From: a virus | Taxonomy: Duplodnaviria; Heunggongvirae; Uroviricota; Caudoviricetes | Length of the DNA: 64,000 bases | IMG/VR virus record: IMGVR_UViG_3300044535_000502 | Reading direction: 5' to 3' (one strand) | Shown here: positions 3,197-35,154 of the stretch, in pieces | How positions within the stretch are numbered: position 1 is the first letter of the stretch | Layout: every line of letters starts with the position of its first letter | The notes under the pieces: generated by a model | The model's input: only the letters and a program-made list of their open reading frames with translations | What the model was told of the DNA's origin: nothing | The model's database searches: none | Position numbers and translations under genes: made by a program

Positions 3197-3211
3197 TTGA
3201 CACATGTTTAC

Positions 3212-3574: not shown

Positions 3575-3594
3575 TTGATCAATAAAATCTGATC

Positions 3595-3632: not shown

Positions 3633-3641
3633 GGAAACATT

Positions 3642-4457: not shown

Positions 4458-4807
4458 TGCGACATTTCACTGATGATGAAACTGTACATGTGAGTGCGAC
4501 TGATACCACACCCGGTCGCAAATTTGACAGTGACAAGTTGCGCTATGATTTGGTGCCGCCACTAGCACTGGAAGAAATGGTAAAGGTTCTGACGTTTGGT
4601 GCACAGAAGTATGAGCCAGACAACTGGCAAAAAGTGCCTGATTCCAAACGCAGATACTTTGCCGCCTTACAAAGGCATCTATGGGCATGGAAACAAGGTG
4701 AAAAACTAGATTCTGAATCTGGTATTCATCACCTCGCTCACGCCGCATGTTGTTTGTATTTCCTATACGAACATGATGTGAAATATTCTGTTGACAAAGC
4801 AGAATGA
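4457..4807 (+). CDS. all-alpha NTP pyrophosphohydrolase-like protein (MazG-like; resembles a dATP/dGTP diphosphohydrolase N-terminal domain)
   Basis: 116 aa. Motifs ...LVPPLALEEMVKVLTFGAQKYEPDNW... and ...HHLAHAACCLYFLYE. Translationally coupled to the upstream gene by an ATGA overlap. Confidence 0.4.
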   Translation: MRHFTDDETVHVSATDTTPGRKFDSDKLRYDLVPPLALEEMVKVLTFGAQKYEPDNWQKVPDSKRRYFAALQRHLWAWKQGEKLDSESGIHHLAHAACCLYFLYEHDVKYSVDKAE

Positions 4808-4841
4808 ATGTTGTACAATTGATTTTTTATTGGAGTATATT

Positions 4842-18745: not shown

Positions 18746-19495
18746 ATGGCCGCTCAACAAGGCTTCCAATACGAAATAAATGCCGCTAATGTCTTGAAAC
18801 CTATGGGTCTTGTGCCTAAAAGTTTTAAGCCAGCGGGAGCAGGACATGATCAACCAGATTTGATGCTTGAACATAAGAAAGACAAAGCTGGTTGTGAATT
18901 GAAAATCACGGCAGCGTCCGCTGGTTCCCTTGTTTTGAAATATGATGCGAAAGATAAAAAAAGTCCCTGGAAATTTGGCAATGTCAGTGAAGATGATGCT
19001 GAAAAGTTCTTTATTAAGAATCTAGCTGAAGAAGTTGGATTATTCAAAAGACTTAAAGCTGAGTGGAAAGAAATTCCTTTCAAGAGAGATAAAGATCCAT
19101 TATGGGAAGCCACTGCAGGTAAACTATCTCCTCAAAAGAGATATGAAAGGGATAGAGATACTTTTCAAGATATTCGTGGTGAGATTAGTGCAAAAGAAAT
19201 TGAAGATTATTACAACAAAAAAGATACTTACTATGTAAATGTTGGCACTCACGGTTTCTACTTAATGGGCTCAAAAAATCCCTTAAAGCTGAAAGACGTT
19301 CCTCGCTTCGGTACTTCTGCAAAAGCAACTTATAGAGCCAGGGTTCAATATAAAGGTAGCGGCAATTATCAGTTCACTTTTGAAATGCAATTTTCTATAC
19401 CATCAAGCAAAAAATCACCATTCAACATTGCTCCAGTTGATGGCAAAAGTGTCACAATTATCAAAAAAGATTTAAGTTTAGGGTGTTTTACGTAA
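18746..19495 (+). CDS. hypothetical protein (late-expressed?)
   Basis: 249 aa. The start was chosen at MAAQQG, which has a GGAG ribosome-binding site 6 nt upstream. No recognisable motif. Confidence 0.4.
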   Translation: MAAQQGFQYEINAANVLKPMGLVPKSFKPAGAGHDQPDLMLEHKKDKAGCELKITAASAGSLVLKYDAKDKKSPWKFGNVSEDDAEKFFIKNLAEEVGLFKRLKAEWKEIPFKRDKDPLWEATAGKLSPQKRYERDRDTFQDIRGEISAKEIEDYYNKKDTYYVNVGTHGFYLMGSKNPLKLKDVPRFGTSAKATYRARVQYKGSGNYQFTFEMQFSIPSSKKSPFNIAPVDGKSVTIIKKDLSLGCFT

Positions 19496-20727
19496 TGAAA
19501 TTCAAAGAATTCCTAACAGAGTCCTCAAAAGAAGGCAAGAACGTTCACCTAGAGCATATCGAGGAAGAAGTTCTAAATCGCGGTGTAGCTGGTACGAGAG
19601 ATGCAATCAACTTTTTGCGATCACTCAGAGACATGCTTGCTGGCAATTCAGACGGCAAGGTAAACATTACCACAAAATGGGACGGTGCACCTGCTGTATT
19701 TGCTGGCACTAATCCAGAGAATGGTAAGTTCTTTGTAGCCACAAAAGGCATCTTCAACAAAGATGCAAAGCTGAACTACACCGATGAAGATATTGACAGA
19801 AATCATCCAGGTGAAGGCCTGAATAAGAAACTGAAGGTTGCACTAGCATACTTGCCTAAGATTGGTATCGATGGCATTCTGCAAGGCGACATGATGTTTG
19901 CTAAAGGTGATATCAAGAAAGCAACGATTGATGGTGTCAAGTATGTGACATTTCAACCAAACACAATCGTGTATGCGGTTCCTGAAGATTCTGCACTAGC
20001 TAAGTCCATGTTGACAGCACAAATGGGTATTGTGTTTCATACGGCATACACAGGAAAGACAATCGCAGATTTGAAGTCTTCATTCAACATCGATATTGGT
20101 AGAATGAAAGCAACTAAGGATGTTTGGTTCCGTGATGCATATTTCGTTGACGCATCTGGTACAGTCACATTTACCGAAAAAGAGACTAAAGAAATCACAG
20201 CTATTTTATCTCAAGCAGGATCCCTGTTCCAAAGAACCAGTAGCATGACCCTGAATCGTATTGCTACCTCTGAGATATTCAATGTTCAGATCAAAACATA
20301 CAACAACACGAAAGTTCGTTCCGGTGAACACATCAAAGATACAACGGAACATGCGAAAGGACTGTTGAAATGGATTGAAGACAAGCTGAACAAAGAGATT
20401 ATTGCCGCTAAAAGAGAAGACACTAAACTCAAGCGTCAAGCTGAAAAGAATGAAATCATGCGATTCTATCGAAGCAACTTTGCCGAGCTTGTTAAGATTT
20501 TTGATATCATGAATATGATCGTTGATTCCAAGAATATCATTATCAAAAAGTTACAACAGATGCGTCAAGTTACTGGTGCATTCTTACGTACAGATGATGG
20601 ATTTAAGGTCACGAATCCAGAAGGCTTTGTTGCTGTTGATCGACTAAAAGGTAATGCCGTCAAGTTGGTTGATAGACTTGAATTCAGTCATGCAAACTTC
20701 ACCGCACAGAAAGCGTGGGACAAATAA
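19495..20727 (+). CDS. putative RNA ligase (Rnl1/RnlA-like nucleotidyltransferase, KxDG motif)
   Basis: TTKWDGAPAV resembles T4 Rnl1 motif I (TKEDGSL). The downstream ATKGIF resembles KSKGSI. 410 aa. TAATG overlap with the upstream gene. Confidence 0.45.
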   Translation: MKFKEFLTESSKEGKNVHLEHIEEEVLNRGVAGTRDAINFLRSLRDMLAGNSDGKVNITTKWDGAPAVFAGTNPENGKFFVATKGIFNKDAKLNYTDEDIDRNHPGEGLNKKLKVALAYLPKIGIDGILQGDMMFAKGDIKKATIDGVKYVTFQPNTIVYAVPEDSALAKSMLTAQMGIVFHTAYTGKTIADLKSSFNIDIGRMKATKDVWFRDAYFVDASGTVTFTEKETKEITAILSQAGSLFQRTSSMTLNRIATSEIFNVQIKTYNNTKVRSGEHIKDTTEHAKGLLKWIEDKLNKEIIAAKREDTKLKRQAEKNEIMRFYRSNFAELVKIFDIMNMIVDSKNIIIKKLQQMRQVTGAFLRTDDGFKVTNPEGFVAVDRLKGNAVKLVDRLEFSHANFTAQKAWDK

Positions 20728-21032
20728 TGCAGTCATTCAAAGAACTGGTGAAAGAAGCATCTTATGCTGGTAACATCGGCATTATGGAACTTATCAAATT
20801 CAAGCAAAAAGCTACACCTGAACAGAAAAAGAAATTTGATGATCATGTGAAGAACAAGCGAACAAAGGATGCTTGGGATATGGTCCAGAAAGTCACTGGA
20901 GTTCAGCTACATAAAAGTGTGCATGAAGAAAAGAAGTCTCCTAATCCAGACATTCTGCCACCAGCTGGCGCAGGGCAAGAGGGCACAGACTTGCTAGTCA
21001 AGCGATACAAACGAGATACTCCAGGTCAGTAA
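20727..21032 (+). CDS. hypothetical basic protein
   Basis: 101 aa and Lys-rich. TAATG coupling to the upstream gene. Confidence 0.35.
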   Translation: MQSFKELVKEASYAGNIGIMELIKFKQKATPEQKKKFDDHVKNKRTKDAWDMVQKVTGVQLHKSVHEEKKSPNPDILPPAGAGQEGTDLLVKRYKRDTPGQ

Positions 21033-24660: not shown

Positions 24661-24714
24661 CAATTGTTTTTTGCTAAATAGACTATAATGAAACTTGCTG
24701 TAGAGGCGGAGTAA

Positions 24715-27246
24715 ATGAAGTTCAGACAATATTTAGAAGAAACAACAGAAAAACATGCGGTCCTTGCGTTCGGACGCATGAATCCACCAACAACCGGTCA
24801 TGCAAAACTGGTTGATAAAGTCAAAGATGTTGCTAAGTCTGTGAGAGGAACACACCACGTGGTTCTATCGCATTCACAGGACGCTGAGAAGAATCCACTC
24901 TCAGGTGAGCAAAAAGTCAAACACGCACAACGATATTTTCCTGACACGAATATCACAACCTCCAGTAAAGAACATCCAAACTTTCTGGCTCAAGCATCAA
25001 AACTCCACAAAGCTGGCGCTACACATTTGCACATGGTTGCAGGATCCGATAGAACTGGTGAGTATGAGAAGATTTTACACAAATACAATGGCGTAAAAGG
25101 TACGCATGGATACTTCAAGTTTCGTGGTATTCACGTACACTCCGCTGGTGAGCGTGATCCTGATGCTGAGGGTGTATCTGGTATGTCTGCATCCAAGATG
25201 CGTAGCCATGCATCAAAAGGCAACTTCAAAGAATTCAAAAAAGGCATTCCAAGTCACGTAGCGCCAGAACACGCTAAAGAATTGTATAATGATGTGCGCA
25301 AGGGAATGCAAGTCAAAGAAGATTTCCGATCACAAATTCAGATGATCCTATCTGAGGGTGTCCACGATAAAGGCATCTTCAAGGCTGTGTTTCTATCGGG
25401 CGGTCCAGGCTCAGGTAAAGACTATGTGTTGGATAACACACTTGCTGGTCATGGCTTGATTGAAATCAACTCAGACAAAGCACTTGAGTTTCTGATGGAC
25501 AAGAATAATCTGGACAAGAAAATGCCAGAGACTGAAGCTGATGCACGGACACTTGTTCGCGGTAAAGCAAAAGACATGACAGAGTTGAAGCAGAAGCTGG
25601 CGCTGTTGGGTCGCAACGGCATCATTATCAATGGCACAGGCGATGATCCCGCAAAGTATGCCAAGATAAAGAAAAACTTAGAAGAAATTGGCTATGAAAC
25701 TTCTATGGTTGCCGTTGTTACACGCGATGAAATTTCTGCACAGAGAAACGTTGAGCGTGGGCAAAGAGGTGGTCGTACAGTTCCTGAGAATATTCGTAAA
25801 GAAAAGTGGGACGCAGTAAACAATTCACGCCCAGAGATGGCTAAGTTGTTTGGCAACAGCTATATTGAATTTGATAACTCTGAAGACTTGCGCACCGCAG
25901 CACCAGAAGTGGTCAAAGCCAAGAAAGAAGAGATGAACAACATCTTCAAGACTGTCCAAAAGTTTGTTCAAGCACCACCTAAGAATGAGCAAGCTAAGGC
26001 TTGGGTTGCTGGTGAACTACAGAAGAAAGACACCTTGCCTGTTCCTAAGAAAGGCACGGAACTGTCTATTCCACACTCCGCTGAGGGCGAAAACAAAGCA
26101 ACTGATGAAGCTAGACGCCTTGGGCTACAATACTATGGCTATGGCCGATATGGTAAGAATGGTAAAGTCACACATCACACAGTTCACGGAACTTTGGTGC
26201 AGGATCCAACACACGCTGAACAGCAAAAGATGATTAAGAAAACTGCTGAAGTTCCTATGAGTGGAGCTAGTAGCCAAAAGCCTGTGCCCAAGAAACCAGT
26301 CAAAGAGTCTATCAACGAAGATTTTCAGAATCTTTTTGAGGCCGTTTCAGTTACTTTCAAAGCTGATACCCCAGAAGAGCTACAAAAAGCAATGAAGATG
26401 CTGACTGGCAATGGAGATGCAGAAGTGGAAGAGCAGGAAGTTGAGGAGCACGTGGACCACACAGAAATGTCTGATTCTGGTGCATACAATCTATTGACGC
26501 TCGGAAAATCCATGTTTGTCTCCGAAAGTATCAGTGGTGAAAGAACTGCCGTAAAAGATGGAGCTACATATATTGCATCAGGCAACAAGCCTAAAGTATA
26601 TGCAATACGAAACAATGCTGCTAAAGACGCACACACCAAAGGTGGTGAAGTCGTTAAGACAGACAAAGGTTACATAGTTAAATTAAAGGAGAATGTAAAT
26701 GTTGAAATTCGTGAAAAGTTTCTTTGTGAAGAGCAAACCGCCAGTGGAACCGGAGCCACAACCATTGCCGAAAGTGGAAGCACCAGCCGTAGTGCCGGAG
26801 TCAGCACCGGAGCCACAACCATTGCCGAAAGTGGAAGTTCCGGTCGTAGTAGTACCAGAGCCATTACCGAAAGTGGAAGTGGAAGTTCCAGTGGTAACAG
26901 TGCAGGAACAAGTGCCAGTGCCAGTGCCGAAGCCAGCACCAAAAACATCCACGAAGCCAGCCGCTTTAAAGGCAAGCTCACCCTCTCGCAAGCCAAAAAC
27001 ACGTTCAAAGAAGCCATCGACAAAGGCATAGAAACTGGCATGTCCATGGCTGCTGGTGGCGAAGGCATTGGGCGTGACATGGGCGAAATCAATGACAAGA
27101 ATGGCAAAGTGAATCCTCTGAAAAAGAAACCTGTTGCTGAAATGGGTGGGGATTCAACCACAGCGTCAATTGGTGCACAAAAACAAGATGAACTGGCTAA
27201 ACATGGCATATCACTTAGCACGTTCAGAGGAAAGAATTACCTATGA
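24715..27246 (+). CDS. multidomain protein: N-terminal cytidylyl/adenylyl-transferase-like domain, central P-loop kinase domain, and a C-terminal Ser/Thr/Gly-rich repeat region
   Basis: MNPPTTGH is an HxGH-type motif and GMSASKMR an ISSTxxR-like motif, together indicating the nucleotidyltransferase alpha/beta fold. GGPGSGKD is a Walker A motif with a downstream lid. The C-terminus carries TTIAESGS repeats. A GGAG ribosome-binding site is present. 843 aa. Confidence 0.5.
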   Translation: MKFRQYLEETTEKHAVLAFGRMNPPTTGHAKLVDKVKDVAKSVRGTHHVVLSHSQDAEKNPLSGEQKVKHAQRYFPDTNITTSSKEHPNFLAQASKLHKAGATHLHMVAGSDRTGEYEKILHKYNGVKGTHGYFKFRGIHVHSAGERDPDAEGVSGMSASKMRSHASKGNFKEFKKGIPSHVAPEHAKELYNDVRKGMQVKEDFRSQIQMILSEGVHDKGIFKAVFLSGGPGSGKDYVLDNTLAGHGLIEINSDKALEFLMDKNNLDKKMPETEADARTLVRGKAKDMTELKQKLALLGRNGIIINGTGDDPAKYAKIKKNLEEIGYETSMVAVVTRDEISAQRNVERGQRGGRTVPENIRKEKWDAVNNSRPEMAKLFGNSYIEFDNSEDLRTAAPEVVKAKKEEMNNIFKTVQKFVQAPPKNEQAKAWVAGELQKKDTLPVPKKGTELSIPHSAEGENKATDEARRLGLQYYGYGRYGKNGKVTHHTVHGTLVQDPTHAEQQKMIKKTAEVPMSGASSQKPVPKKPVKESINEDFQNLFEAVSVTFKADTPEELQKAMKMLTGNGDAEVEEQEVEEHVDHTEMSDSGAYNLLTLGKSMFVSESISGERTAVKDGATYIASGNKPKVYAIRNNAAKDAHTKGGEVVKTDKGYIVKLKENVNVEIREKFLCEEQTASGTGATTIAESGSTSRSAGVSTGATTIAESGSSGRSSTRAITESGSGSSSGNSAGTSASASAEASTKNIHEASRFKGKLTLSQAKNTFKEAIDKGIETGMSMAAGGEGIGRDMGEINDKNGKVNPLKKKPVAEMGGDSTTASIGAQKQDELAKHGISLSTFRGKNYL
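26745..26945 (+). repeat. GC-rich tandem repeat (~57-bp unit, about 3 copies) inside the 24715..27246 CDS
   Basis: ggagccacaaccattgccgaaagtggaag recurs at about 26751, 26808 and 26857. It leaves long open frames on both strands. Confidence 0.7.
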
Positions 27247-27620
27247 AAAACTATAAAGATTTTGTCACTGAAGCTGGGCGCTGCTGGAAAGGCTATAAAC
27301 CTGTTCCAGGTAAGAAAGCATACTCACCCGATTCTTGTATGAAAGAAGAAACTGTAGTGGAAGCCGCAGTTGATGCTAAAGGACTAAAAAGCTCTACTGG
27401 TGGTCTAACTCAAAAGGGTCGTGACTACTACAACAGAAAAGATGGCGGCAATCTAAAAGCACCGGTTACAACACCACCATCAAAATTGACACCGGGCAGT
27501 AAAGCTGCTAACCGTCGCAAGTCATTCTGTGCTAGAATGGGTGGAGTGGAAGGTCCGATGAAGAAACCTAACGGAGAGCCGTCCCGTAAAGCTCTCGCAC
27601 TAAGAAAATGGAATTGCTAA
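27243..27620 (+). CDS. hypothetical basic protein
   Basis: 125 aa, Lys/Arg/Gly-rich. ATGA overlap with the upstream gene. Confidence 0.35.
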   Translation: MKNYKDFVTEAGRCWKGYKPVPGKKAYSPDSCMKEETVVEAAVDAKGLKSSTGGLTQKGRDYYNRKDGGNLKAPVTTPPSKLTPGSKAANRRKSFCARMGGVEGPMKKPNGEPSRKALALRKWNC

Positions 27621-29273
27621 GTGGCACAATTTAATAAAGATATTGGTGCGCTAGATCCGAAGATTTCATCTCGATATGAGGTGATGATGTTGGCTAATAA
27701 CGCTAATGGTGATATCGTTTCTCTCTCAAATCCTTTACCAGTAACTCTTGGTTCAGAAAATATCACAATTACTGGAAACGTGAATTTTGTGGATACGGTT
27801 AATGTCGCAAGTTCGCCAGAAAACCCAGTTCATACACACATTACGGAAGTTGGCACAAGTGGTTTATTGACTGTATCTTATATGCCAATAGGCGGAAATG
27901 TTAACATTGGCACAGACGGCATCGTTAGTTTATCGGCAAACACATTGTCAGCATTGGAAAATACCACAGTTACTATCAGCGGCACTCCTACAGTTAACAT
28001 TGGCACTATGCCTGAGGTAGAGATTAAAAACGACAGCGGCAATCCTATACCTATTAGTGGTAATGTAAATGCTACCCTAACTGGCACCAGTGCTGTAACT
28101 TTGGGGGCAGCGGCCACTGATGCGTTTGGACGGTTGCGTGTAAGTAATCCATATACACTGTTCGATGGTGGTCTGCGTTACTTTGACAATACATACAAGT
28201 GGGACCAAGTGGACACAGGCTCTGTCACTTCCTCTTTCTTACCTAACGAAAGTTCTATTCTAATGAGCGCTACAGGAGCAGGATCGGCCATTCGTCAGAC
28301 TAAACAGGTATTTTCCTACCAGCCTGGTAAGAGTCTATTGGTTCTGTTGACCTTTGTTATGAACGCTCCTACCGCTGGCGTTACACAACGAGCAGGCTAT
28401 TTCGGAGCACAGAACGGCATCTACTTTGAAGTAGCAGACACCACAAAAAATCTAGTTATTAGAAAATACACTTCTGGTTCAGTAGATGACACTACGGAAA
28501 AATTCCCTCAAAGTTTGTGGAATGGTGATAAATTAGATGGAACTGGAGCCAGCGGAATAACATTAGATGTAACCAAAGCACAAATCTTCTGGACAGACAT
28601 AGAATGGTTAGGTGTAGGGACAGTTCGTTGTGGATTTGTGATTAACGGACAGTTCATCGTTTGTCACAGTTTTCATCATGCCAACATATTAAACAAGGTC
28701 TATATGACCAGTGCTACGTTACCCCTACGATATGAATTGATCAGCACTGGACCCGCAGCCTCAATGAGAGCAATCTGTAGTACAGTTATGTCGGAAGGCG
28801 GTTATAGTAATCGCAGTTTTACCCGTGCCATAGGAACAGCACTAACTGGTAAGGACCTCAGCAATACCGTGTACAGACCATTAGTCTGTTTACGCATGAA
28901 GTCAACAGCCCCGGACTCTATTGTAGTGCCCACTGCGTTCGATGTATTTGGACTACAACAAGCAGCCTTTTCATATCGCATTATTCTCAATCCCACATTG
29001 ACTGATGCTAATTGGACCAGTGCTGACACAGACAGTACAGTAGAGTATGACATCTCTGCTACAGCATTATCTGGCGGCAAAGTAATAACGCAAGGTGTAT
29101 TTGTAGGATCTAATAAGGGCGGATCCGCTCAAGTTACTAGCAACGAAATAGACTTTAGTCAACAGTTAGGTAGAACTATAGCAGGTGTATCAGACATATG
29201 GTGTTTGGCAGCAATAGCCACTACCAACAACGATGATGCTGTGGGCATTGTAAACTGGCAGGAACATAACTAA
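27621..29273 (+). CDS. large beta-rich protein, probably a virion structural protein or adhesin (possible GTG start)
   Basis: 550 aa. The N-terminus has short Thr/Gly/Asn/Val repeats (NVNIGTDG.., TVNIGTMP..), which suggest a beta-helix. The C-terminus looks jelly-roll-like. Confidence 0.35.
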   Translation: MAQFNKDIGALDPKISSRYEVMMLANNANGDIVSLSNPLPVTLGSENITITGNVNFVDTVNVASSPENPVHTHITEVGTSGLLTVSYMPIGGNVNIGTDGIVSLSANTLSALENTTVTISGTPTVNIGTMPEVEIKNDSGNPIPISGNVNATLTGTSAVTLGAAATDAFGRLRVSNPYTLFDGGLRYFDNTYKWDQVDTGSVTSSFLPNESSILMSATGAGSAIRQTKQVFSYQPGKSLLVLLTFVMNAPTAGVTQRAGYFGAQNGIYFEVADTTKNLVIRKYTSGSVDDTTEKFPQSLWNGDKLDGTGASGITLDVTKAQIFWTDIEWLGVGTVRCGFVINGQFIVCHSFHHANILNKVYMTSATLPLRYELISTGPAASMRAICSTVMSEGGYSNRSFTRAIGTALTGKDLSNTVYRPLVCLRMKSTAPDSIVVPTAFDVFGLQQAAFSYRIILNPTLTDANWTSADTDSTVEYDISATALSGGKVITQGVFVGSNKGGSAQVTSNEIDFSQQLGRTIAGVSDIWCLAAIATTNNDDAVGIVNWQEHN

Positions 29274-29299
29274 TTAACATAAAACAAAAAGGAAAAACC

Positions 29300-31093
29300 A
29301 TGTTCAACGATAAAATTCTAAAATCAGTGGCCGAAGCAGTGAAAGCTGTTGTGGACGAAGCACTGAAAGGCGATCAACACAAGATCGATAAAAACAAAAA
29401 CGGCAAAGTTGATGCACACGACTTCAAGTTGTTGCGCAAAGAGGAAGCCAAGAAGCCTGCTAGCCCATTTGACTGGAAGAATACTCCACGCCAAACTGCT
29501 GAAAAAGGTGAGAAGACTGGCCACGATGCTAAGAAAATCTCCACAGGCACTGTGTACACTAAGAAGTATACAAAAGAAGAAGCATCTCAAGAAGAGTTCA
29601 ACAAAGAGATCAAGATAGCACAAGACAAGTCCATTGGCAAGAGCAAAGCTGAAGTTGCAAAGCCTGCTGTGCAAGCTGTCAAGCAAGAATCTGTTGAACA
29701 ACTAGATGAACTGAGCAAGAAGACTCTTGGTAAATATATTAAGGCTGCCCGAGATAATGTGAGAAATAGATCATACATGATAGGACGTGATGTTTCTAAA
29801 CTTAAACCGTCCCCACAACATGTCCGTAAAGTTAAAAATTCAACTACTGGTATACAAAGAGCGGTAGATCGTTTGACTAAAGAAGAAGTTGAACAAATTG
29901 ATGAGTTAAGTAAGAAGACACTCGGTTCATACATCAATAAAGCTGTAAGCAGTGTAGCAAATAAAGATTATAATATTGGACGTCTGCACTTTGGCGACCA
30001 ACCTGAAAAAAAAGCTGATGTGAAACAGCAAGCCCGCGAAATAAAAAAAGATGAACGTGTGATTAAAAAGCGAAATCGCGGCGTTGATCGCGCTGTTAAA
30101 CGTTTGACTAGAGAAGAATATGAAAACTTAGATGAACTTGAATTTACTGTTGAAGATGTTGAAAACTTCATGCAAACTGAAGAATTTGAACAACTAGATG
30201 AACTGAGCAAGAAGACTCTTGGTAAATATATCAATAAAGCCCAAGGCAGGGTGAGGTATGCCGCACACGAGGTAGGTCATCATCTTACTACACTGGAACG
30301 AAATCGTAGGACGCCAGGAAACTTCCGTAGACTTAAAAATTCAACTACTGGTATACAAAGAGCGGTAGATCGTTTGACTAAAGAAGAAGTTGAACAAATT
30401 GATGAGTTAAGTAAGAAGACACTCGGTTCATACATCAATAAAGCTGTAAGAAGTCAAGCAGATAGAGAGCATAATATTGCAAGCGTGGCGTATGGTGCCC
30501 AACCTGAAAAAAAAGCTGATCAGGTTCGTAACGCCCGCGAAATGAAAGCAGATCAGCGTGTGATTAAAAAGCGAGACCGCGGCGTTAAAAAAGCTGTTAA
30601 ACGTTTGACTAGAGAAGAATATGAAAACTTAGATGAACTTGAATTTACTGTTGAAGATGTTGAAAACTTCATGCAAACTGAAGAATTTGAACAACTAGAT
30701 GAACTAAAGAAGTCTACACTAGCATCCTATGTCAAGAAAGCATCTCATGATGTTGCACACAAGGGCGCATTGACTCGTCAACATGCTAATGATTCAGAAG
30801 CTGCACGTAAAGATTCACGCTACAATGATGCTAGAAAGAGCATGGAGAAAGCAGATAAAACTTTTGCTAAGTCTTGGAAGCGCCGCGAAAACATGGGCAA
30901 AGCTGTTGATCGTTTAGCTAAGGAAGAAGTTGAGCAAATTGAAGAGCGTTCATTGACCACCGCTGAAAAGGCTGCATTGGAAAAGAATGTCAAAGGCATG
31001 AAGAAGAACATTGCTGGCTTCAAAGAGCGTTATGGCAAAGATGCTAAGTCTGTTATGTACGCTACGGCCACCAAGCAAGCCAAGGGAGAGTAA
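29300..31093 (+). CDS. Lys/Glu-rich internally repeated protein (EEVEQIDELSKKTLGSYINKA motif repeated five or more times)
   Basis: 597 aa. A strong ribosome-binding site AAAGGAAA is present. Two ~167-aa tandem units are nearly identical. Confidence 0.6.
   Translation: MFNDKILKSVAEAVKAVVDEALKGDQHKIDKNKNGKVDAHDFKLLRKEEAKKPASPFDWKNTPRQTAEKGEKTGHDAKKISTGTVYTKKYTKEEASQEEFNKEIKIAQDKSIGKSKAEVAKPAVQAVKQESVEQLDELSKKTLGKYIKAARDNVRNRSYMIGRDVSKLKPSPQHVRKVKNSTTGIQRAVDRLTKEEVEQIDELSKKTLGSYINKAVSSVANKDYNIGRLHFGDQPEKKADVKQQAREIKKDERVIKKRNRGVDRAVKRLTREEYENLDELEFTVEDVENFMQTEEFEQLDELSKKTLGKYINKAQGRVRYAAHEVGHHLTTLERNRRTPGNFRRLKNSTTGIQRAVDRLTKEEVEQIDELSKKTLGSYINKAVRSQADREHNIASVAYGAQPEKKADQVRNAREMKADQRVIKKRDRGVKKAVKRLTREEYENLDELEFTVEDVENFMQTEEFEQLDELKKSTLASYVKKASHDVAHKGALTRQHANDSEAARKDSRYNDARKSMEKADKTFAKSWKRRENMGKAVDRLAKEEVEQIEERSLTTAEKAALEKNVKGMKKNIAGFKERYGKDAKSVMYATATKQAKGE
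29836..30835 (+). repeat. ~500-bp tandem duplication (2 copies) within the 29300..31093 CDS
   Basis: Segments at about 29841-29950 and 30341-30450 are near-identical, as are 30003-30210 and 30503-30710. Confidence 0.7.
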
Positions 31094-31094
31094 T

Positions 31095-32762
31095 ATGAGA
31101 AGTTTCAAGCAGATTGCAAGTCTTGTCCGCGGTGAGGACATTTTGGAAGAGGGTAAAAAGTCTCTTGGAACAGGATGGATGCTGAAGGCTGATCCGAAGT
31201 TGGGAAAAGCTGTCAAAGATAAGCTCGACCTTGCTAAAAAACGTCAGGCAACTTATGGTGATAAATCTGCTGGCAAATCCATCAAAGAAGAAGAAACCAT
31301 TGAAGAAGCTGGTCTGTGGGACAACATTCATGCCAAGCGTGAAAGAATCAAAAAAGGTTCAGGTGAACGTATGCGTAAGCCTGGCTCAGAGGGTGCACCA
31401 TCCGAGAAGGATTTGAAAAACTCACAGACTAATGAAGAGGTTGAACTGGCCGAAGCTGACGCCAAAGACTATCACTCAGTACATGTCAATGGTCGTCACT
31501 GGAAAACATTTGATACCAAGTCTCATGCCGAGAACGTTGCAAAGAAAGTCAAAGGCGCTACAGTACATAAGTATGATGCTGAGAGACTGCAACAAAACTA
31601 TGGTGCAAAATCTGCGGCTAGAAATGCGGCACGTGGTAAGCAGTGGGATGAGTCTGTTGATGTTGAGCAACTAGATGAAATGCCTGGTGCTAACATGGAT
31701 ACCCGTGCTGTGCATCAACATCTGAAGAAGCGTGGTTGGAAACTTTCGCGCACATCAGGTAGCCACGATGTATACACACATCCAGAAGCAAAGCACCACA
31801 TTCCAGTTCCACGTCATCGTCAATTAAAGGCACCATTGGTCAAAGGTATTCTGAAACAAGCTGAAATCAATGAGCAAGCTGAATCGGATACCACCGAAAA
31901 AACTGAGATGGCCCAAACGCAACTACACTTCATCAAGTATGCCGCTGAAGAAATTCTTGAGTTCATTGAGATGGGTGGTGAAATTGAAGAGTGGTATCAG
32001 AACAAACTATCTAAAGTTCAAAGTGATGTAGAATCACTACACTCATACATTGAAGGTGAGTCTCGCCGTACAGGGATGAAGGAAGAAGTTGAGCAGATTG
32101 ATGAGTTGTCAAAGAAAACTCTTGGCTCCTATGTCAATAAAGCAATGGACAGCGCAAGAGAATTGCCTGGCACCGGCACAAACGCTGAGGCGAGTAAGAA
32201 GACAAAACGATACGCTGCTGTTTCTGCTGCTGCATATCGCACACAAGGTCTTGCACCAAGAAAAGGTACTGATATGTTTAAGAAGTACAAAGCTGAGAGT
32301 GTTGTGGCGGAAGAAGTTGGTCAAACTAGCAACTCCAACGAGAATCCGGACGCTGGTCGTTTCACATCCGGACCAGCTAAGAAGCCTGCGAAGCCTACAC
32401 CTATCATTACTGCTGAACAAACTGCAACAGACTTGGGTAAAGAGCGTTATGAGGTTCCATTTGATGGTCCTTATACCAAAAATACAACAAAAGTGACAAC
32501 AGACAAATCTGGCGCAAAACACACAGCAATGTCTAGAGTTAAGCACCTCGCAAAGACTGCTGCACGTAAACAAGCAGGTCTAAAAGAAGAGCAAGAGCCG
32601 GAAGATTCTTTTGAGAAAACAAGCACACCTGCGAAACGTTCACTGTCTAAGACTGCTGGCATCGTAAAAGATTTGGCTAAGAATTCTAAGTCATCTAGCA
32701 AAGAAAAAGCTGATACATTCCAAGCTGAACCTGAGCTATCATCACAGATCATCAAAACATAA
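31095..32762 (+). CDS. Lys/Glu-rich protein with an embedded HicA-toxin-like (YcfA) domain and one copy of the EEVEQIDELSKKTLGSY repeat
   Basis: Residues ~201-257 read KKRGWKLSRTSGSHDVYTHPEAKHHIPVPRHRQLKAPLVKGILKQAEI, which matches the HicA signature (GSH..HP..VP.H..L..g.L..IlkqA). The start was chosen at MRSFKQ, which has an AAGGGAGAG ribosome-binding site. Confidence 0.55.
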   Translation: MRSFKQIASLVRGEDILEEGKKSLGTGWMLKADPKLGKAVKDKLDLAKKRQATYGDKSAGKSIKEEETIEEAGLWDNIHAKRERIKKGSGERMRKPGSEGAPSEKDLKNSQTNEEVELAEADAKDYHSVHVNGRHWKTFDTKSHAENVAKKVKGATVHKYDAERLQQNYGAKSAARNAARGKQWDESVDVEQLDEMPGANMDTRAVHQHLKKRGWKLSRTSGSHDVYTHPEAKHHIPVPRHRQLKAPLVKGILKQAEINEQAESDTTEKTEMAQTQLHFIKYAAEEILEFIEMGGEIEEWYQNKLSKVQSDVESLHSYIEGESRRTGMKEEVEQIDELSKKTLGSYVNKAMDSARELPGTGTNAEASKKTKRYAAVSAAAYRTQGLAPRKGTDMFKKYKAESVVAEEVGQTSNSNENPDAGRFTSGPAKKPAKPTPIITAEQTATDLGKERYEVPFDGPYTKNTTKVTTDKSGAKHTAMSRVKHLAKTAARKQAGLKEEQEPEDSFEKTSTPAKRSLSKTAGIVKDLAKNSKSSSKEKADTFQAEPELSSQIIKT

Positions 32763-32788
32763 ATAAACAATAACAAAAGGAGTCATAA

Positions 32789-33349
32789 ATGACACTATGG
32801 GCAAAATCAGATTCAAGCAACGCGGCACCAAAACACGCAGGCGTTGCAGCTACTAACAATGCAAACGGAGCAACACTGTTTGGTAGCACAACTATCGGTG
32901 CATTCACACCTAGACAAGCTGTTGGCATTTTCGGTGTTGACAGTACTGAACAGGGCGTTGCGGCTAATCCAAAAGGAGCACACGCAGGTTGGGTTGTTGT
33001 AAAGCAAGGCACAGGTCCTGTTGCAACACTTACAGCGAATGCAAGTTCATACTCACCTGACGGTAACGTATTCTTGACATTCACTGGCGGTGGCACAGGT
33101 AACACTTCCGCTAACGCACGTATCGTTACAAACGGTGCAAAGTTGATTACTGGTATTACACTGACAACTGGTGGTAACTACTTGGCTGCACCAACAATCG
33201 GCGCGGTGCCAAACTCTAACGTATCAATTACAATCACCATGGGTGGTCGTGTCGGGCGCGAACACACAGAGACTCTTGTTGCTATGGGCAGCATCGGTCA
33301 AGCAGGTGTTGCTGACGCTTCCGATGACACAGTGTTTGCAGACAGCTAA
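32789..33349 (+). CDS. Gly/Thr/Ala-rich protein, probably structural
   Basis: 186 aa. A strong AAGGAG ribosome-binding site is present. Low-complexity G/T/A/N composition. Confidence 0.4.
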   Translation: MTLWAKSDSSNAAPKHAGVAATNNANGATLFGSTTIGAFTPRQAVGIFGVDSTEQGVAANPKGAHAGWVVVKQGTGPVATLTANASSYSPDGNVFLTFTGGGTGNTSANARIVTNGAKLITGITLTTGGNYLAAPTIGAVPNSNVSITITMGGRVGREHTETLVAMGSIGQAGVADASDDTVFADS

Positions 33350-33711
33350 TGAATTTCAAAGAATTCATCACGGAGTCAATGGATGGTGGAGATGAAGTCT
33401 CCATTGACTCAGTAACGCAGGGTAAACTCAATCTGTTGTTGATGGTTGAGCTAACTCAGCCTGTCTTGACACCAGAATCGGGTATCGCAAAGATTCGTAA
33501 AATACTTTATCTTGAGGGAATCGCATTTGAGTCCCTTTATGATTTGAACACTGAAGGTGAAGAATTAGCAACACACTTATCTGGCGATAGTTTTCTGTAT
33601 ATTCTGTATTATCCAACGGATGATGGATACTATGATTTTTATGCTGAGATTATGGATGAAAGTGGTGTAGAGCAAGCAATGTCTGAACTGGAAGGGGAAG
33701 ACGAAAGCTAA
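33349..33711 (+). CDS. hypothetical acidic protein
   Basis: 120 aa, highly acidic. TAATG coupling. Confidence 0.35.
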   Translation: MNFKEFITESMDGGDEVSIDSVTQGKLNLLLMVELTQPVLTPESGIAKIRKILYLEGIAFESLYDLNTEGEELATHLSGDSFLYILYYPTDDGYYDFYAEIMDESGVEQAMSELEGEDES

Positions 33712-33712
33712 A

Positions 33713-34105
33713 ATGTCTTTTGATGATTTGACTAGTGAGAACATCCTACTATATGCAGTCAAGGCTTATGATAAGCCTAATTGCATTATGAGTGAGTTCA
33801 AAGAAGACATGAAGCGGTTCAATTATTTGAAGCGCCTGTTCTATCGTTATCGAAAAGAAGGCGAGATGCGTGAGCGTCTTGTCATCAATCACTTGATAGT
33901 GCTATACAATGTTTTTGGTGTTGAAGTTGCTACTAGAATGTTGTTTTTCAAGGTACATAAAGAGGATTACCACACACTCAAAACATATCTGCTGTTTCTA
34001 AATTACATGCCGAGTGTTGTTATGGGTATTAGAGGCAATAACATCATATCGTCAGACATAGATGTTGACATGAAAGTTGCTGAGGTTCTTAGGGAAATAA
34101 AATGA
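33713..34105 (+). CDS. hypothetical protein
   Basis: 130 aa ORF. Confidence 0.35.
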   Translation: MSFDDLTSENILLYAVKAYDKPNCIMSEFKEDMKRFNYLKRLFYRYRKEGEMRERLVINHLIVLYNVFGVEVATRMLFFKVHKEDYHTLKTYLLFLNYMPSVVMGIRGNNIISSDIDVDMKVAEVLREIK

Positions 34106-34434
34106 CAATAAAAGAAGATGCTCCAACAAACTCTGTAGGTGGTGGTAATGTAGCTGGTATCGGTGTGCCAAACCCTAATATTCCAAATCAAGCTGAACCA
34201 GGCATTAAACGTAAGAAGTTTGCTGGTTCTACCGTATTCACTGTGCCATCCAAATCCTTTGTCATGGCTAAGATGCTGAAACGTAAGGGCGCCAGATTTG
34301 AATCCTATCTTGGTGATTCTGGTGTGTCCAAAGAGATTGCAGACTATGCTAATGCCAACTGGAAAGAAGGCATTGTGCTAGAAGATGAACAAACTGGTGC
34401 AATGGTATACCTGAGATACGGCAGAGGCAACTAA
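34102..34434 (+). CDS. hypothetical protein
   Basis: 110 aa. ATGA overlap with the upstream gene. Confidence 0.35.
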   Translation: MTIKEDAPTNSVGGGNVAGIGVPNPNIPNQAEPGIKRKKFAGSTVFTVPSKSFVMAKMLKRKGARFESYLGDSGVSKEIADYANANWKEGIVLEDEQTGAMVYLRYGRGN

Positions 34435-34435
34435 A

Positions 34436-34891
34436 ATGTGGATTTTGCAATGGCTTCCTAACTGGATTTTCTATGCTTGCTTTTTAGCTGGTGTATTAGG
34501 TCTTGCTGCAACTTTTGTCATGAAGTTCATTCCGTTTGTATATGTCTATAAGACACCGATACAGATGGTGTCTATTATTTTGATAGCATTGGGCACTTAC
34601 ATGGCAGGTGCAATCAGTAACAACGAACAGTGGGAAGCAAGAGTTAAGGAACTTCAAATCAAAGTCGCTGAAGCGCAAGCCAAAGCTGCGGAAGAGAATG
34701 TCAAAATTGTTGAGAAAGTGGTCAACAATACAAAGATCGTTAAAGAGCGTGGTGAAGAAGTTATCAAGTATGTTGACAAAGAGGTTATCAAGTACGACAC
34801 AAAATTTATCGCTGGCGGTGAGTGTGAAATACCTAAAGAATTCATAATTTCACTGAACAAAGCAGCAACACCGCCGGATGCAAAAAAATGA
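34436..34891 (+). CDS. i-spanin-like protein (N-terminal transmembrane segments plus a periplasmic coiled coil)
   Basis: N-terminal hydrophobic segments followed by EQWEARVKELQIKVAEAQAKAAEENVKIVEK, a coiled coil. It is followed by an overlapping lipoprotein gene. Confidence 0.5.
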   Translation: MWILQWLPNWIFYACFLAGVLGLAATFVMKFIPFVYVYKTPIQMVSIILIALGTYMAGAISNNEQWEARVKELQIKVAEAQAKAAEENVKIVEKVVNNTKIVKERGEEVIKYVDKEVIKYDTKFIAGGECEIPKEFIISLNKAATPPDAKK

Positions 34892-35154
34892 AATCAATCA
34901 TAACATGCTTTATGGTATTTCTGTTGGTGGGTTGTTCAACAACTGTGCCCGTCACTATGAAATTTCCAGATGCTCCACTTATGCTGAAACAAAAATGTGC
35001 TCCACTGAAGCTGTTAGCTGAGGACGCAAAGTTGAGTGATATTGCAAAAAATGTTACCGAGAATTACAACATGTATTATAGCTGTGCAGTCAAAATGGAT
35101 GCATGGATTGAGTGGCATGAAAAACAACAAAAAATATTTGAGGTGTTACAATAA
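34888..35154 (+). CDS. o-spanin-like outer-membrane lipoprotein
   Basis: A signal peptide with the lipobox LLVGC|S. 88 aa. ATGA overlap with the i-spanin-like gene. Directly upstream of the endolysin. Confidence 0.5.
   Translation: MKSIITCFMVFLLVGCSTTVPVTMKFPDAPLMLKQKCAPLKLLAEDAKLSDIAKNVTENYNMYYSCAVKMDAWIEWHEKQQKIFEVLQ

What the first reader, a model, noticed from the sequence alone, without database searches (positions are those of the whole stretch)
29300..32200. Recent ~500-bp tandem duplication and a shared 21-aa repeat (EEVEQIDELSKKTLGSYINKA) across two adjacent Lys/Glu-rich genes
Gene 29300..31093 contains two nearly identical ~167-aa units, with nucleotide identity over ~500 bp at 29836-30335 versus 30336-30835. 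It also contains five or more copies of the 21-aa motif, which occurs again in the next gene at about 32086-32150. Both proteins are extremely rich in K/E/R/D. They resemble phage internal-head or scaffold-like proteins, or DNA-mimic/DNA-binding proteins. The near-perfect duplication indicates ongoing expansion.
Basis: seen in the sequence. Interest (0 to 1): 0.6.

Follow-up and report, generated by a model that had tools for sequence, protein, structure and literature searches.

The report
Cassette polyproteins with protease-site-like linkers
Two adjacent genes of a T4-like aquatic phage encode strings of small basic protein cassettes joined by a conserved acidic linker that looks like a T4 head-protease cutting site. 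They are probably polyproteins packed into the phage head and cut into pieces that enter the host with the DNA.

Summary
The repeat is real but misdescribed. Gene 1 (29300-31093) has a 501-nt-period tandem duplication: two exact blocks (118 and 113 nt) flank a core that is only about 77% identical. It is not about 500 bp of near-identity.

The "21-aa motif" is two things: an 8-aa acidic linker, EEVEQ(I/L)DE, plus the first helix of the following cassette.

- The linker bounds every cassette in gene 1 and gene 2.
- Orthologues keep the same ends but carry different cassette sets.
- Insertions and deletions fall exactly at linkers.
- The motif is kept by selection on the protein: 11 synonymous against 1 non-synonymous codon differences between the gene 1 and gene 2 copies.

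The phage is T4-like. The linker ends in I/L-x-E, the T4 gp21 prohead-protease motif. Neighbouring genes start with leaders like the T4 capsid targeting sequence (MKNYKDFVTE|A against MKTYQEFIAE|A). The same cassettes occur elsewhere directly behind such leaders. Syntenic leader- and linker-bearing proteins were detected in cyanophage virions.

Best explanation (confidence about 0.5): head-packaged polyproteins cut at each linker into basic internal or ejected proteins, one of them a HicA RNase domain. Packaging and cleavage are inferred, not shown.

The family has at least 4,185 clusters and no published description in the searched library.

The parts
29300..31093 (+). Gene 1: 597-aa basic modular protein (leader, N-terminal module, cassettes A, B, spacer, A', B', spacer, D, C-terminal module)
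   Evidence: ORF listing, segmentation at linkers, JGI gene call of the same length
29300..29359 (+). 20-aa N-terminal leader MFNDKILKSVAEAVKAVVDE, ending in V-D-E before ALKG. Predicted propeptide.
   Evidence: Paralogues carry a canonical leader at the same junction (MKSYTQFLE|ALKG, MQFKSFME|ALKG). AF2 gives helix 5-19, then a low-pLDDT break at 20-25.
29387..29422 (+). EF-hand-like loop DKNKNGKVDAHD in the N-terminal module
   Evidence: Sequence. EF-hand Pfam hits in related linker proteins.
29687..29710 (+). Linker 1, ESVEQLDE
29882..29905 (+). Linker 2, EEVEQIDE
30113..30136 (+). Linker 3, EEYENLDE, followed by an acidic 14-aa spacer
30179..30202 (+). Linker 4, EEFEQLDE. Start of tandem unit 2. 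Its sequence is D-type at the 5' end and A-type at the 3' end, as expected for an unequal cross-over junction.
30383..30406 (+). Linker 5, EEVEQIDE
30614..30637 (+). Linker 6, EEYENLDE
30680..30703 (+). Linker 7, EEFEQLDE
30923..30946 (+). Linker 8, EEVEQIEE
29687..30178 (+). Tandem unit 1 (cassette A + cassette B + acidic spacer), 492 nt
30179..30679 (+). Tandem unit 2 (A' + B' + acidic spacer), 501 nt
29832..29949 (+). Exact 118-nt block, repeated at 30333-30450. It is centred on linker 2 (linker 5 in the second copy).
30092..30204 (+). Exact 113-nt block, repeated at 30593-30705. It spans linkers 3-4 (linkers 6-7 in the second copy).
30451..30592 (+). 142-nt patch in the core of B'. It holds all 38 differences between the window and the otherwise identical relative L002.
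30947..31090 (+). C-terminal 48-aa module RSLTTAEK...YATATKQAKGE. Also present in cyanomyovirus proteins next to the cytidylyltransferase gene.
   Evidence: AF2 pLDDT is about 90 here.
31095..32762 (+). Gene 2: 555-aa modular protein
31095..31151 (+). Leader-like N-terminus MRSFKQIASLVRGEDILEE
31308..31424 (+). Small basic module (phrog_16028), preceded by EEETIEE
31656..31679 (+). Linker-like VDVEQLDE in front of the HicA module
31710..31868 (+). HicA toxin domain (aa 206-258). GSH at aa 222-224; the His aligns with the Ala of GSAHH in PDB chain 4c26.
   Evidence: Pfam PF07927, 47.4 bits against a cut-off of 27. PDB alignment.
32082..32144 (+). Gene 2 copy of the 21-aa motif. The linker EEVEQIDE is 32082-32105. 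In the L003 orthologue a 41-aa cassette is inserted exactly here.
27243..27620 (+). DUF6321 protein with a T4-CTS-like leader MKNYKDFVTE|A and an internal EETVVE|A junction
24715..27246 (+). 843-aa fusion of a cytidylyltransferase and a Zeta-toxin-like kinase, with leader MKFRQYLEE|T
   Evidence: Cyanophage homologues were detected in virions.
19495..20727 (+). DUF6267 protein with leader MKFKEFLTE|S
20727..21032 (+). 101-aa protein with leader MQSFKELVKE|A
33349..33711 (+). 120-aa protein with leader MNFKEFITE|S
27621..29273 (+). Virion structural protein (phrog_1645) immediately upstream of gene 1, separated by a 26-nt gap

Best explanation
Genes 1 and 2 encode cassette polyproteins of a T4-like phage. 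Small, mostly helical, basic modules of 48-117 aa are strung together by a conserved acidic octapeptide, EEVEQ(I/L)DE.

**Proposed mechanism**
1. An N-terminal leader takes the whole chain into the assembling prohead, as the T4 capsid targeting sequence does for T4 internal proteins.
2. The gp21-type prohead protease cuts after the last Glu of the leader and of each linker (I/L-x-E|). This releases a set of basic internal proteins and discards the acidic spacers.
3. The products, including a HicA RNase-type domain from gene 2, stay with the DNA and enter the host at infection.
4. Because every cassette is bounded by the same linker, recombination and gene conversion at linkers duplicate, delete and swap cassettes. 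The 501-nt tandem duplication is one such event.

**Shown:** the cassette-and-linker architecture, its shuffling, selection on the protein sequence, the T4-like context, and the equivalence of leader and linker in front of the same cassettes.

**Inferred:** packaging into the head, proteolytic cleavage, and ejection into the host.
For: **Architecture and shuffling**
- All cassettes in gene 1 and one in gene 2 start right after a linker. In the 64-kb window the strict linker occurs only in these two genes.
- Orthologues of 328-695 aa share the N-terminal 130 aa and the C-terminal 56 aa but carry different cassettes, with the homology breaks at linkers.
- The gene 2 orthologue in L003 has a 41-aa cassette inserted exactly at GMKEEV.
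- The exact DNA blocks are centred on linkers, while the cassette cores diverge.
- The window and L002 are identical over 21.7 kb except for 38 differences inside 30451-30592.

**Selection on the peptide**
- The gene 1 and gene 2 motif copies differ at 11 synonymous and 1 non-synonymous codons out of 21.

**T4-like phage**
- The gp43 DNA polymerase matches cyanomyoviruses full-length at 52% identity. UvsX, a helicase, a primase and ribonucleotide reductase are present, and relatives carry gp45, gp44/62, RegA, gp46/47 and TAGT in the flanks.

**Fit to the T4 rules**
- gp21 cuts after L/I-x-E. Internal-protein propeptides are 10-19 aa. Residues 4 and 7 serve targeting and residues 8 and 10 serve processing (PMC9026906).
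- The T4 capsid targeting sequence is MKTYQEFIAE and the internal proteins are highly basic (bioRxiv 10.1101/2021.01.19.427310).
- The linker has I/L and E at the positions that correspond to processing residues 8 and 10.
- Neighbouring genes start MKNYKDFVTE|A, MKFRQYLEE|T, MKFKEFLTE|S, MQSFKELVKE|A and MNFKEFITE|S.
- Across 118 viral loci that carry the linker, 57 of 1,236 ORFs have the strict leader. Random sequence gives 12 in 200,000, and internal Met positions give 8 in 7,218.

**Leader and linker are interchangeable**
- 28 of 29 DUF6321 cores and 430 of 431 LSKKTLGSY-type helices follow a hydrophobic-x-E motif. That motif is either an N-terminal leader (MLKFKDFILE|VAAWQRKEG; MKHYKDLVSE|ISRKTLGSY; Cr30 MRSKILAE|ISKKTL) or an internal linker.

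**Predicted products**
- The gene 1 cassettes have pI 9.3-10.4 and net charge +5 to +8. The 22-aa spacer has net charge -9.
- In the AF2 model, six of the nine predicted cut sites lie in or next to a low-confidence segment, and a seventh lies in a helix break.

**Experimental support from relatives**
- Virion mass spectrometry of S-CREM2 and S-SZBM1 detected the leader-bearing cytidylyltransferase (MKNFSSFLTE|A and MRFRQFIIE|A).
- It also detected modular proteins from the same locus (gp160 and _139) that share cassettes with linker proteins (PMC10665884, PMC9146016).
Against: - No gp21 gene was seen, because the head genes lie outside the window and outside the flanks I could fetch. Its presence rests on T4-like membership.
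- There is no proteomic or N-terminal data for gene 1, gene 2 or any EEVEQIDE protein.
- Gene 1's own leader is not canonical: it has no aromatic residue at position 4.
- L/I-x-E is a short motif and glutamate-rich helices contain it often. Because a hydrophobic-x-E motif precedes the LSKKTLGSY helix in 430 of 431 cases, it could simply be part of that module.
- Two of the nine predicted sites (aa 202 and 301) lie inside continuous predicted helices.
- No T4-type late promoter motif lies upstream of gene 1.
- Detection in virions of purified cyanophages does not prove a location inside the head.
Confidence: 0.5

Rival explanations
1. The same modular proteins are packaged or virion-associated but remain uncut. 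The acidic octapeptide is only a flexible spacer or helix cap between domains of a multi-domain (polyvalent-type) ejected protein.
For: - Multi-domain injected proteins are common in phages (PMC5512222).
- AF2 places some linkers inside continuous helices.
- Related proteins were detected in virions without any information on processing.
Against: - A plain spacer would not need eight conserved residues that end in the exact gp21 processing determinants.
- It would not be expected to be interchangeable with an N-terminal leader that resembles a propeptide known to be cleaved.
- The hallmark domains of polyvalent proteins (MuF, zincin-like peptidase) were not found.
Confidence: 0.22
2. These are intracellular proteins that are not packaged. 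They would be Lys/Glu-rich helical proteins that bind nucleic acid or regulate it, and the leader-like N-termini would serve some other shared purpose such as translation or stability.
For: - The composition is basic and helical.
- The genes lie among replication and nucleotide-metabolism genes rather than in the head cluster.
- No late-promoter motif was found directly upstream.
Against: - The gene immediately upstream is a virion structural protein.
- The syntenic cytidylyltransferase and modular proteins were detected in purified virions of two cyanophages.
- The leader matches the T4 capsid targeting sequence at all four functionally mapped positions.
Confidence: 0.17
3. The proteins are prohead scaffold or core proteins of the gp22, gp67 or gp68 type. 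They would be cut up and expelled during maturation rather than delivered to the host.
For: - They are helical and charged, and they carry multiple L/I-x-E sites like gp22, which is cut into many fragments.
- A weak, non-significant fold hit to a 'prohead core protein' appeared.
Against: - Gene 1 is basic (pI 9.6), whereas the cyanophage gp22 sequence I read is visibly rich in Asp and Glu.
- Length varies from 328 to 695 aa among close relatives, which is unlikely for a size-determining scaffold.
- The genes are not located next to gp21 and gp23.
- The chains carry a HicA domain and enzyme fusions.
Confidence: 0.07
4. The repeat is an assembly artefact.
For: One relative (L002) shows a perfectly homogenised second copy, which could be a short-read collapse.
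Against: - The window's exact sequence was recovered in an independent ENA assembly with 0 differences over 4,794 nt.
- The exact protein is indexed in 28 assembly blocks.
- The diverged copy is also present in a 695-aa variant.
Confidence: 0.02

Closest known systems
T4 internal proteins IPI, IPII, IPIII and Alt: capsid targeting sequence plus gp21 processing
   Same: - The phage lineage is T4-like.
- The proteins are small and basic.
- An N-terminal leader of 10-20 aa ends in hydrophobic-x-E, with an aromatic residue at position 4 and a hydrophobic residue at positions 7-8 in the neighbouring genes.
- The L/I-x-E motif is present.
- The mature parts are very diverse while only the targeting and cleavage element is conserved (PMC9026906, PMC3012670, bioRxiv 10.1101/2021.01.19.427310).
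   Different: - T4 internal proteins are separate genes that are cut once. Here up to about nine predicted sites join many cassettes in one reading frame.
- The internal element is a longer, conserved octapeptide that carries the processing determinants but not the targeting ones.
- There is no sequence similarity to the mature T4 internal proteins.
- Packaging and cleavage are untested.
Inner-body and ejection proteins of giant phages (phiKZ, 201phi2-1, SPN3US) processed by gp21-related proteases
   Same: Head-internal proteins are cut after Glu at several sites per chain, and the fragments are kept in the head and ejected (PMC9026906, PMC7411985, PMC10052503).
   Different: - I recall the phiKZ-type motif as S/A/G-x-E; I did not check this in the papers I read.
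- Those proteins are not built from shuffled cassettes with a uniform linker.
- The phage lineage is different.
Polyvalent proteins of phages and conjugative elements (Iyer et al. 2017, PMC5512222)
   Same: Several unrelated modules, including enzymes or toxin-type domains, sit in one polypeptide that is proposed to be delivered with the DNA and possibly processed.
   Different: - That paper does not mention HicA, Zeta toxin or any linker.
- Its marker domains (MuF, zincin-like peptidase, ART and others) are absent here.
- Most modules here are tiny helical units unknown to Pfam.
HicA toxins of type II toxin-antitoxin systems (PF07927)
   Same: Gene 2 aa 206-258 scores above the Pfam cut-off and keeps the GSH motif.
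   Different: - The domain is embedded in a 555-aa chain between linkers.
- No HicB family appeared in the family scans of the ten genes at 24715-34891.
- The context is a phage structural or effector locus, not a two-gene toxin-antitoxin operon.
Pfam DUF7443 (PF24227), DUF6321 (PF19846) and PHROG 5709
   Same: The cassettes of gene 1 resemble DUF7443 and phrog_5709. The neighbouring gene is DUF6321.
   Different: - Gene 1 scores below the DUF7443 cut-off (21 bits against 27).
- These families are uncharacterised domains.
- None of the searched papers describes them or the linker.

Membership tests
T4-type internal (capsid-targeted, gp21-processed) proteins | Encoded by a phage of the T4-like superfamily | tested here: met
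   - gp43 matches full-length at 52% identity to cyanomyoviruses.
- UvsX, helicase, primase and RNR are in the window.
- gp45, gp44/62, RegA, gp46/47 and TAGT are in relatives' flanks.
T4-type internal (capsid-targeted, gp21-processed) proteins | The phage encodes a gp21-type prohead protease | not tested
   The head genes lie outside the window and outside the 10-kb flanks I fetched. A gp21 is present in the related cyanophage S-SZBM1.
T4-type internal (capsid-targeted, gp21-processed) proteins | N-terminal capsid targeting sequence of 10-19 aa, with an aromatic or hydrophobic residue at positions 4 and 7 and I/L at 8 plus E at 10 | tested here: inconclusive
   - Five neighbouring genes match, for example MKNYKDFVTE|A.
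- Gene 1 has a 20-aa leader ending V-D-E but no aromatic residue at position 4.
- Gene 2 has MRSFKQIASLVRGEDILEE.
- Paralogues of the gene 1 first module carry canonical leaders.
T4-type internal (capsid-targeted, gp21-processed) proteins | Cleavage after Glu in L/I-x-E by the prohead protease | not testable with these tools
   The motif is present at the leader and at all eight linkers of gene 1 and at the gene 2 linker. Actual cleavage needs virion mass spectrometry or an enzyme assay.
T4-type internal (capsid-targeted, gp21-processed) proteins | Basic mature proteins present inside the virion | tested here: inconclusive
   - The predicted products have pI 9.3-10.4.
- Presence in virions is shown only for syntenic, cassette-sharing proteins of S-CREM2 and S-SZBM1.
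Polyvalent proteins (Iyer et al. 2017) | Two or more domains of disparate biochemical activity in one polypeptide, linked to packaging genes or to MuF or zincin-like peptidase domains | tested here: inconclusive
   - Gene 2 has HicA plus unknown modules.
- Related linker proteins carry cytidyltransferase, DUF192, ferritin-like and EF-hand domains.
- No MuF or zincin-like peptidase was found.
HicA toxin (PF07927) | Score above the Pfam gathering threshold, with the Gly-Ser-His motif conserved | tested here: met
   47.4 bits against a cut-off of 27. GSH lies at aa 222-224 and aligns to GSAHH of chain 4c26. I recall 4c26 as the H24A mutant; I did not verify this.
HicA toxin (PF07927) | Adjacent HicB antitoxin gene | tested here: not met
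   No HicB family appeared among the Pfam or PHROG hits of the ten genes at 24715-34891, which include gene 2's neighbours on both sides.
DUF7443 (PF24227) | Score at or above the Pfam gathering threshold | tested here: not met
   21.0 bits against a cut-off of 27 for gene 1. Relatives P0071 and P0098 carry precomputed PF24227 hits.
Prohead scaffold or core protein (gp22-type) | Acidic, of conserved length, encoded between gp21 and gp23 | tested here: not met
   - pI is 9.6.
- Length varies from 328 to 695 aa among relatives.
- The locus lies between the cytidylyltransferase and spanin genes.

The most novel reading that the evidence does not exclude
Aquatic T4-like phages may use a general "leader/linker code".
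- An N-terminal leader like the T4 capsid targeting sequence (M-K-x-F-K-x-F-L-x-E) would mark proteins for loading into the head.
- An internal EEVEQ(I/L)DE linker would serve both as the prohead-protease site and as the recombination point.
- Thousands of small cassettes and enzymes (HicA RNase, cytidylyltransferase-kinase, DUF6267, DUF6321 and others) could then be concatenated, shuffled, loaded as polyproteins and released as a changeable mix of injected effectors.

This would be a previously undescribed, sequence-readable catalogue of injected proteins in an abundant group of environmental phages.
Probability: 0.4. Interest if true: 0.8.

Novelty: new variant of a known kind. Interest (0 to 1): 0.62.

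Why it matters
If the reading is right, the proteins that aquatic T4-like phages inject with their DNA could be read from sequence by looking for a leader and a linker. These are the first proteins to act in the host and the likely anti-defence or takeover factors.

- It would give a function to a very large unannotated family: at least 4,185 clusters at 50% identity, plus DUF7443 and DUF6321.
- It would explain why a cytidylyltransferase turns up in cyanophage virion proteomes.
- It would show a simple evolutionary device, a uniform in-frame linker that doubles as processing site and recombination point, for rapid turnover of effector sets.
- The leader and linker could be tried as tools for loading foreign proteins into environmental phage capsids, as the T4 capsid targeting sequence is used in T4.

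If cleavage and packaging are refuted, what remains is a well-documented case of cassette shuffling in a phage protein family of unknown role.

Tried and rejected
- **Tandem Repeats Finder** found nothing in 28000-34000. The 501-nt period is just over its 500 limit and the copies are mosaic.
- **Megablast** of 27000-33500 against isolated phages gave no match.
- **tblastn of gene 1** against phages gave only Cr30 and a few cyanophage hits to the C-terminal module.
- **PDB sequence search** gave nothing for gene 1 and only weak HicA hits for gene 2.
- **NCBIfam** had no family for gene 1, gene 2 or the leader-bearing neighbours.
- **AF2 of gene 1** gave no global fold (pLDDT 65, pTM 0.29). The Foldseek search against viral models gave no hit at E <= 0.001, only generic long-helix proteins, so I drew no fold-based conclusion.
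- **Full-text search** for the motif strings, DUF7443 and DUF6321 found no paper. Only the T4 review holds both "capsid targeting sequence" and "cyanophage".
- **Looking for gp21 and gp23** by fetching flanks of the first and last window genes failed. There was no exact record for the first gene. The upstream flanks hold replication and repair genes, and the downstream flanks hold mostly small unannotated genes plus DNA and RNA ligases.
- **Promoter and terminator scan**: counts did not exceed shuffled controls, and no TATAAATA lies near gene 1.
- **BLAST-HSP breakpoint analysis** was uninformative because gapped HSPs ran through the repeats. A cruder prefix/suffix comparison was used instead, and it was disturbed by a 1-aa indel in some orthologues.
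- **First automated "Rosetta-stone" test**, which extrapolated alignment starts, was too noisy (53 of 336). I replaced it with direct motif-anchored counts.
- **Scaffold, DNA-mimic and assembly-artefact readings** were considered and rejected, as set out under the rival explanations.

Full report
**1. What is in the sequence**

Gene 1 is 29300-31093 (597 aa). Gene 2 most likely starts at the ATG at 31095, one base after the gene 1 stop, and ends at 32762 (555 aa). The JGI gene calls on a near-identical contig agree.

The self-comparison peaks at an offset of 501 nt.

- At offset 501 the stated 500 nt are 76% identical.
- The truly related stretch, 29823-30205 against 30324-30706, is 89% identical.
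- Within it, two blocks are exact: 29832-29949 = 30333-30450 (118 nt) and 30092-30204 = 30593-30705 (113 nt). The core between them is about 77% identical.

Tandem Repeats Finder reported nothing, because the period is just over its limit.

The exact 21-mer EEVEQIDELSKKTLGSYINKA occurs twice in gene 1. There are three diverged full copies and three linker-only copies. Gene 2 has one copy with a single substitution at 32082-32144.

The structure is not an assembly artefact. An independent ENA assembly is identical over 4,794 nt across the repeat, and the exact protein is indexed in 28 assembly blocks.

**2. The "motif" is a linker plus the first helix of a cassette**

Cutting gene 1 at the pattern E-E-V-E-Q-(I/L)-D-E splits it into these parts:

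- a 129-aa N-terminal part;
- cassettes A and B and a 22-aa acidic spacer;
- A', B' and the same spacer again;
- cassette D;
- a 48-aa C-terminal module.

In the window the strict linker occurs only in these two genes.

Twenty-two orthologues (328-695 aa) keep the same N-terminal 130 aa and C-terminal 56 aa but hold different cassettes between them. Some of those cassettes are unrelated to the LSKKTLGSY type, for example EEVEQVAE|AKFDPMKHIDKK and EEVEQMDE|VAKWRKTS. Homology breaks fall at linkers.

In gene 2, the orthologue on contig L003 carries an extra 41-aa cassette inserted exactly at the GMKEEV linker. The HicA domain is itself preceded by VDVEQLDE.

A logo built from 187 linkers in 120 homologues shows:

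- EE, then V (74%), then E, then Q (68%), then I/L/V, then D/E, then E at the fixed positions;
- K at position -2;
- a much more variable sequence downstream.

**3. How the repeat evolves**

The window and JGI contig L002 are identical over 21.7 kb except for 38 substitutions. All 38 lie in 30451-30592, the core of B'. In L002 the two units are 100% identical over about 365 nt. A single event must explain this: gene conversion from unit 1, a patch import, or an assembly collapse in L002.

The diverged B' is also present in a 695-aa variant that differs elsewhere. The diverged state is therefore probably older, and the duplication is not very recent.

The exact blocks sit on the cassette boundaries. 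The start of A' is D-like at its 5' end and A-like at its 3' end, as expected for an unequal cross-over within the shared linker DNA.

The linker is nevertheless kept by selection on the peptide. The gene 1 B copy and the gene 2 copy differ at 11 synonymous and 1 non-synonymous codons out of 21.

**4. Context**

The phage is T4-like.

- The window holds a gp43-type DNA polymerase (52% identity, full length, to cyanomyoviruses), UvsX, a helicase, a primase and ribonucleotide reductase.
- Relatives' flanks hold gp45, gp44/62, RegA, gp46/47 and TAGT.

The locus order is: helicase, DUF6267..., cytidylyltransferase-kinase, DUF6321, virion structural protein, gene 1, gene 2, a 186-aa "MxLWxx" protein..., DUF7207, spanins, primase, NrdA. 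Most of this order recurs in Caulobacter phage Cr30 and in the cyanomyoviruses S-H68, S-CREM2 and S-SZBM1.

Of 118 IMG/VR loci that hold the exact EEVEQIDE coding pattern, many also carry homologues of the window's neighbouring genes:

| Neighbouring gene | Loci with a homologue |
|---|---|
| Cytidylyltransferase | 51 |
| DUF7207 | 50 |
| DUF6321 | 33 |
| DUF6267 | 29 |
| Primase | 21 |

The family is large. There are 4,185 clusters at 50% identity with E <= 1e-3, and 1,519 with E <= 1e-10. It is essentially unannotated.

**5. Why I read the linker as a protease site and the locus as internal-protein genes**

The T4 literature sets out the rules.

- gp21 cuts after Glu in L/I-x-E.
- T4 internal proteins carry 10-19-aa N-terminal propeptides, the capsid targeting sequences. 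Residues 4 and 7 serve targeting and residues 8 and 10 serve processing (PMC9026906).
- The T4 sequence is MKTYQEFIAE, and the internal proteins are highly basic.
- The internal proteins of T-even phages are diverse, with only this targeting sequence conserved (PMC3012670).

The locus fits these rules in several ways.

- The linker ends in I/L-D-E. It therefore has the processing determinants but not the targeting ones.
- Five neighbouring genes begin with close look-alikes of the T4 leader: MKNYKDFVTE|A, MKFRQYLEE|T, MKFKEFLTE|S, MQSFKELVKE|A and MNFKEFITE|S.
- In the linker-bearing loci, 57 of 1,236 ORFs carry the strict leader. Random sequence gives 12 in 200,000. The consensus, M-[K/L]-[S/K/T]-F-K-[Q/E]-[F/Y]-[L/I/V]-x-E, agrees with the T4 sequence at all four functionally mapped positions.

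Leader and linker are interchangeable in front of the same cassette.

- 28 of 29 DUF6321 cores follow a hydrophobic-x-E motif: 5 are leaders and 23 are internal linkers.
- 430 of 431 LSKKTLGSY-type helices follow one. N-terminal examples include MKHYKDLVSE|ISRKTLGSY and Cr30 MRSKILAE|ISKKTL.
- The first module of gene 1 (ALKG..., with an EF-hand-like loop) follows a canonical leader in paralogues such as MKSYTQFLE|ALKG.

Other observations point the same way.

- The predicted cleavage products of gene 1 are basic (pI 9.3-10.4), and the 22-aa spacers are very acidic.
- The AF2 model is helical with no global fold. Six of the nine predicted cut sites lie in or next to a low-confidence segment, and a seventh lies in a helix break.
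- In about ten of 93 linker proteins a cytidyltransferase is fused into the same chain.

There is experimental support from relatives. Virion mass spectrometry detected:

- the leader-bearing cytidylyltransferase of S-CREM2 (MKNFSSFLTE|A) and of S-SZBM1 (MRFRQFIIE|A);
- the modular proteins gp160 and _139 from the same locus, which share cassettes with linker proteins (PMC10665884, PMC9146016).

**6. What is not shown**

- I did not see a gp21 gene for this phage.
- No data show that gene 1 or gene 2 is packaged or cut.
- Gene 1's own leader is atypical.
- L/I-x-E is a short motif in a glutamate-rich protein.
- Two predicted sites lie inside continuous helices.
- The hydrophobic-x-E could be part of the cassette fold.

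I therefore give the full mechanism (packaging plus cleavage at the linkers) a confidence of about 0.5. The remainder is divided among an uncut packaged multi-domain protein, an unpackaged nucleic-acid-binding protein, a scaffold-type core protein, and an artefact, which is essentially excluded.

**7. Comparison with known systems and novelty**

The system probably works like the T4 internal-protein, targeting-sequence and gp21 system, and like the multiply processed inner-body proteins of giant phages. It differs in three ways:

- it concatenates many cassettes in one frame;
- it uses a uniform, longer linker;
- it shuffles cassettes at that linker.

It resembles the "polyvalent protein" idea but lacks that class's marker domains, and that paper does not cover it.

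Formal membership is met for HicA (domain only, with no HicB partner), not met for DUF7443, and untestable for the T4 internal-protein class. No paper in the searched library contains the motif or these DUF names.

I rate it a new variant of a known kind, with interest of about 0.6.

Noticed in passing
window 62789-63361 (+): This 190-aa protein carries PF26128 (Gad2) in the precomputed gene tables of identical contigs. I understand Gad2 to be an anti-Gabija family, which would make this a candidate anti-defence gene. It sits at the switch between a block of minus-strand small genes and a plus-strand block.
   Followed up: no
window 24715-27246 (+): The 843-aa protein fuses a cytidylyltransferase-like domain (aa 9-205) to a Zeta-toxin/AAA_33 P-loop kinase (aa 223-370). 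A long tail follows, containing a Ser/Gly/Thr-rich internal repeat (GATTIAESGS, about aa 700-735). The L003 orthologue is 27 aa shorter. With the leader-bearing DUF6267 protein, whose S-SZBM1 homologue contains a KWDG sequence (the KxDG motif I associate with ligases), this may form an RNA- or nucleotide-modifying enzyme set.
   Followed up: partly
window 27621-29273 (+): The virion structural protein (phrog_1645, shared with cyanomyoviruses and the podovirus HMO-2011) has about 118 extra N-terminal residues, rich in short V/N/G/T repeats, compared with the 432-aa orthologue in L003.
   Followed up: partly
window 24657-24689 and 32758-32765: A perfect TTGACA and a perfect TATAAT lie upstream of the cytidylyltransferase gene, but they are separated by 21 nt. 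CATAAATA, which resembles a T4 late promoter, lies just upstream of the 186-aa gene at 32789. Neither was tested further.
   Followed up: no
window 34436-34891 and 34888-35154 (+): This is a likely spanin pair. The first gene gives Rz-like and 'signal peptide motif' PHROG hits. The second overlaps it and starts MKSIITCFMVFLLVGCSTT, a lipoprotein signal. The pair is syntenic with Cr30 gp058.
   Followed up: partly
L128/L129 (flanks upstream of the window start in related contigs): Relatives carry TAGT (T4 alpha-glucosyltransferase, PF20691), peptide deformylase, gp46/47 and a second small CTP_transf_like gene. TAGT suggests glucosylated hydroxymethylcytosine DNA.
   Followed up: no
L039:2819-3655 (+): An internal leader-like sequence (...LSFKQYLNE|VAAWQRKEG) lies about 190 aa into an ORF. 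Either two leader-bearing genes have fused in frame, or a leader has been captured as a linker. It could represent an intermediate between separate genes and a polyprotein.
   Followed up: no
L005 (Caulobacter phage Cr30, gp064, locus 2855-4903): The 682-aa protein has the same cassette grammar but a different linker dialect (ESENLNE, ESENLEE, ESEEMINE). Its leader MRSKILAE sits directly before ISKKTL. Cr30 is a cultured phage in which the cleavage prediction could be tested.
   Followed up: partly
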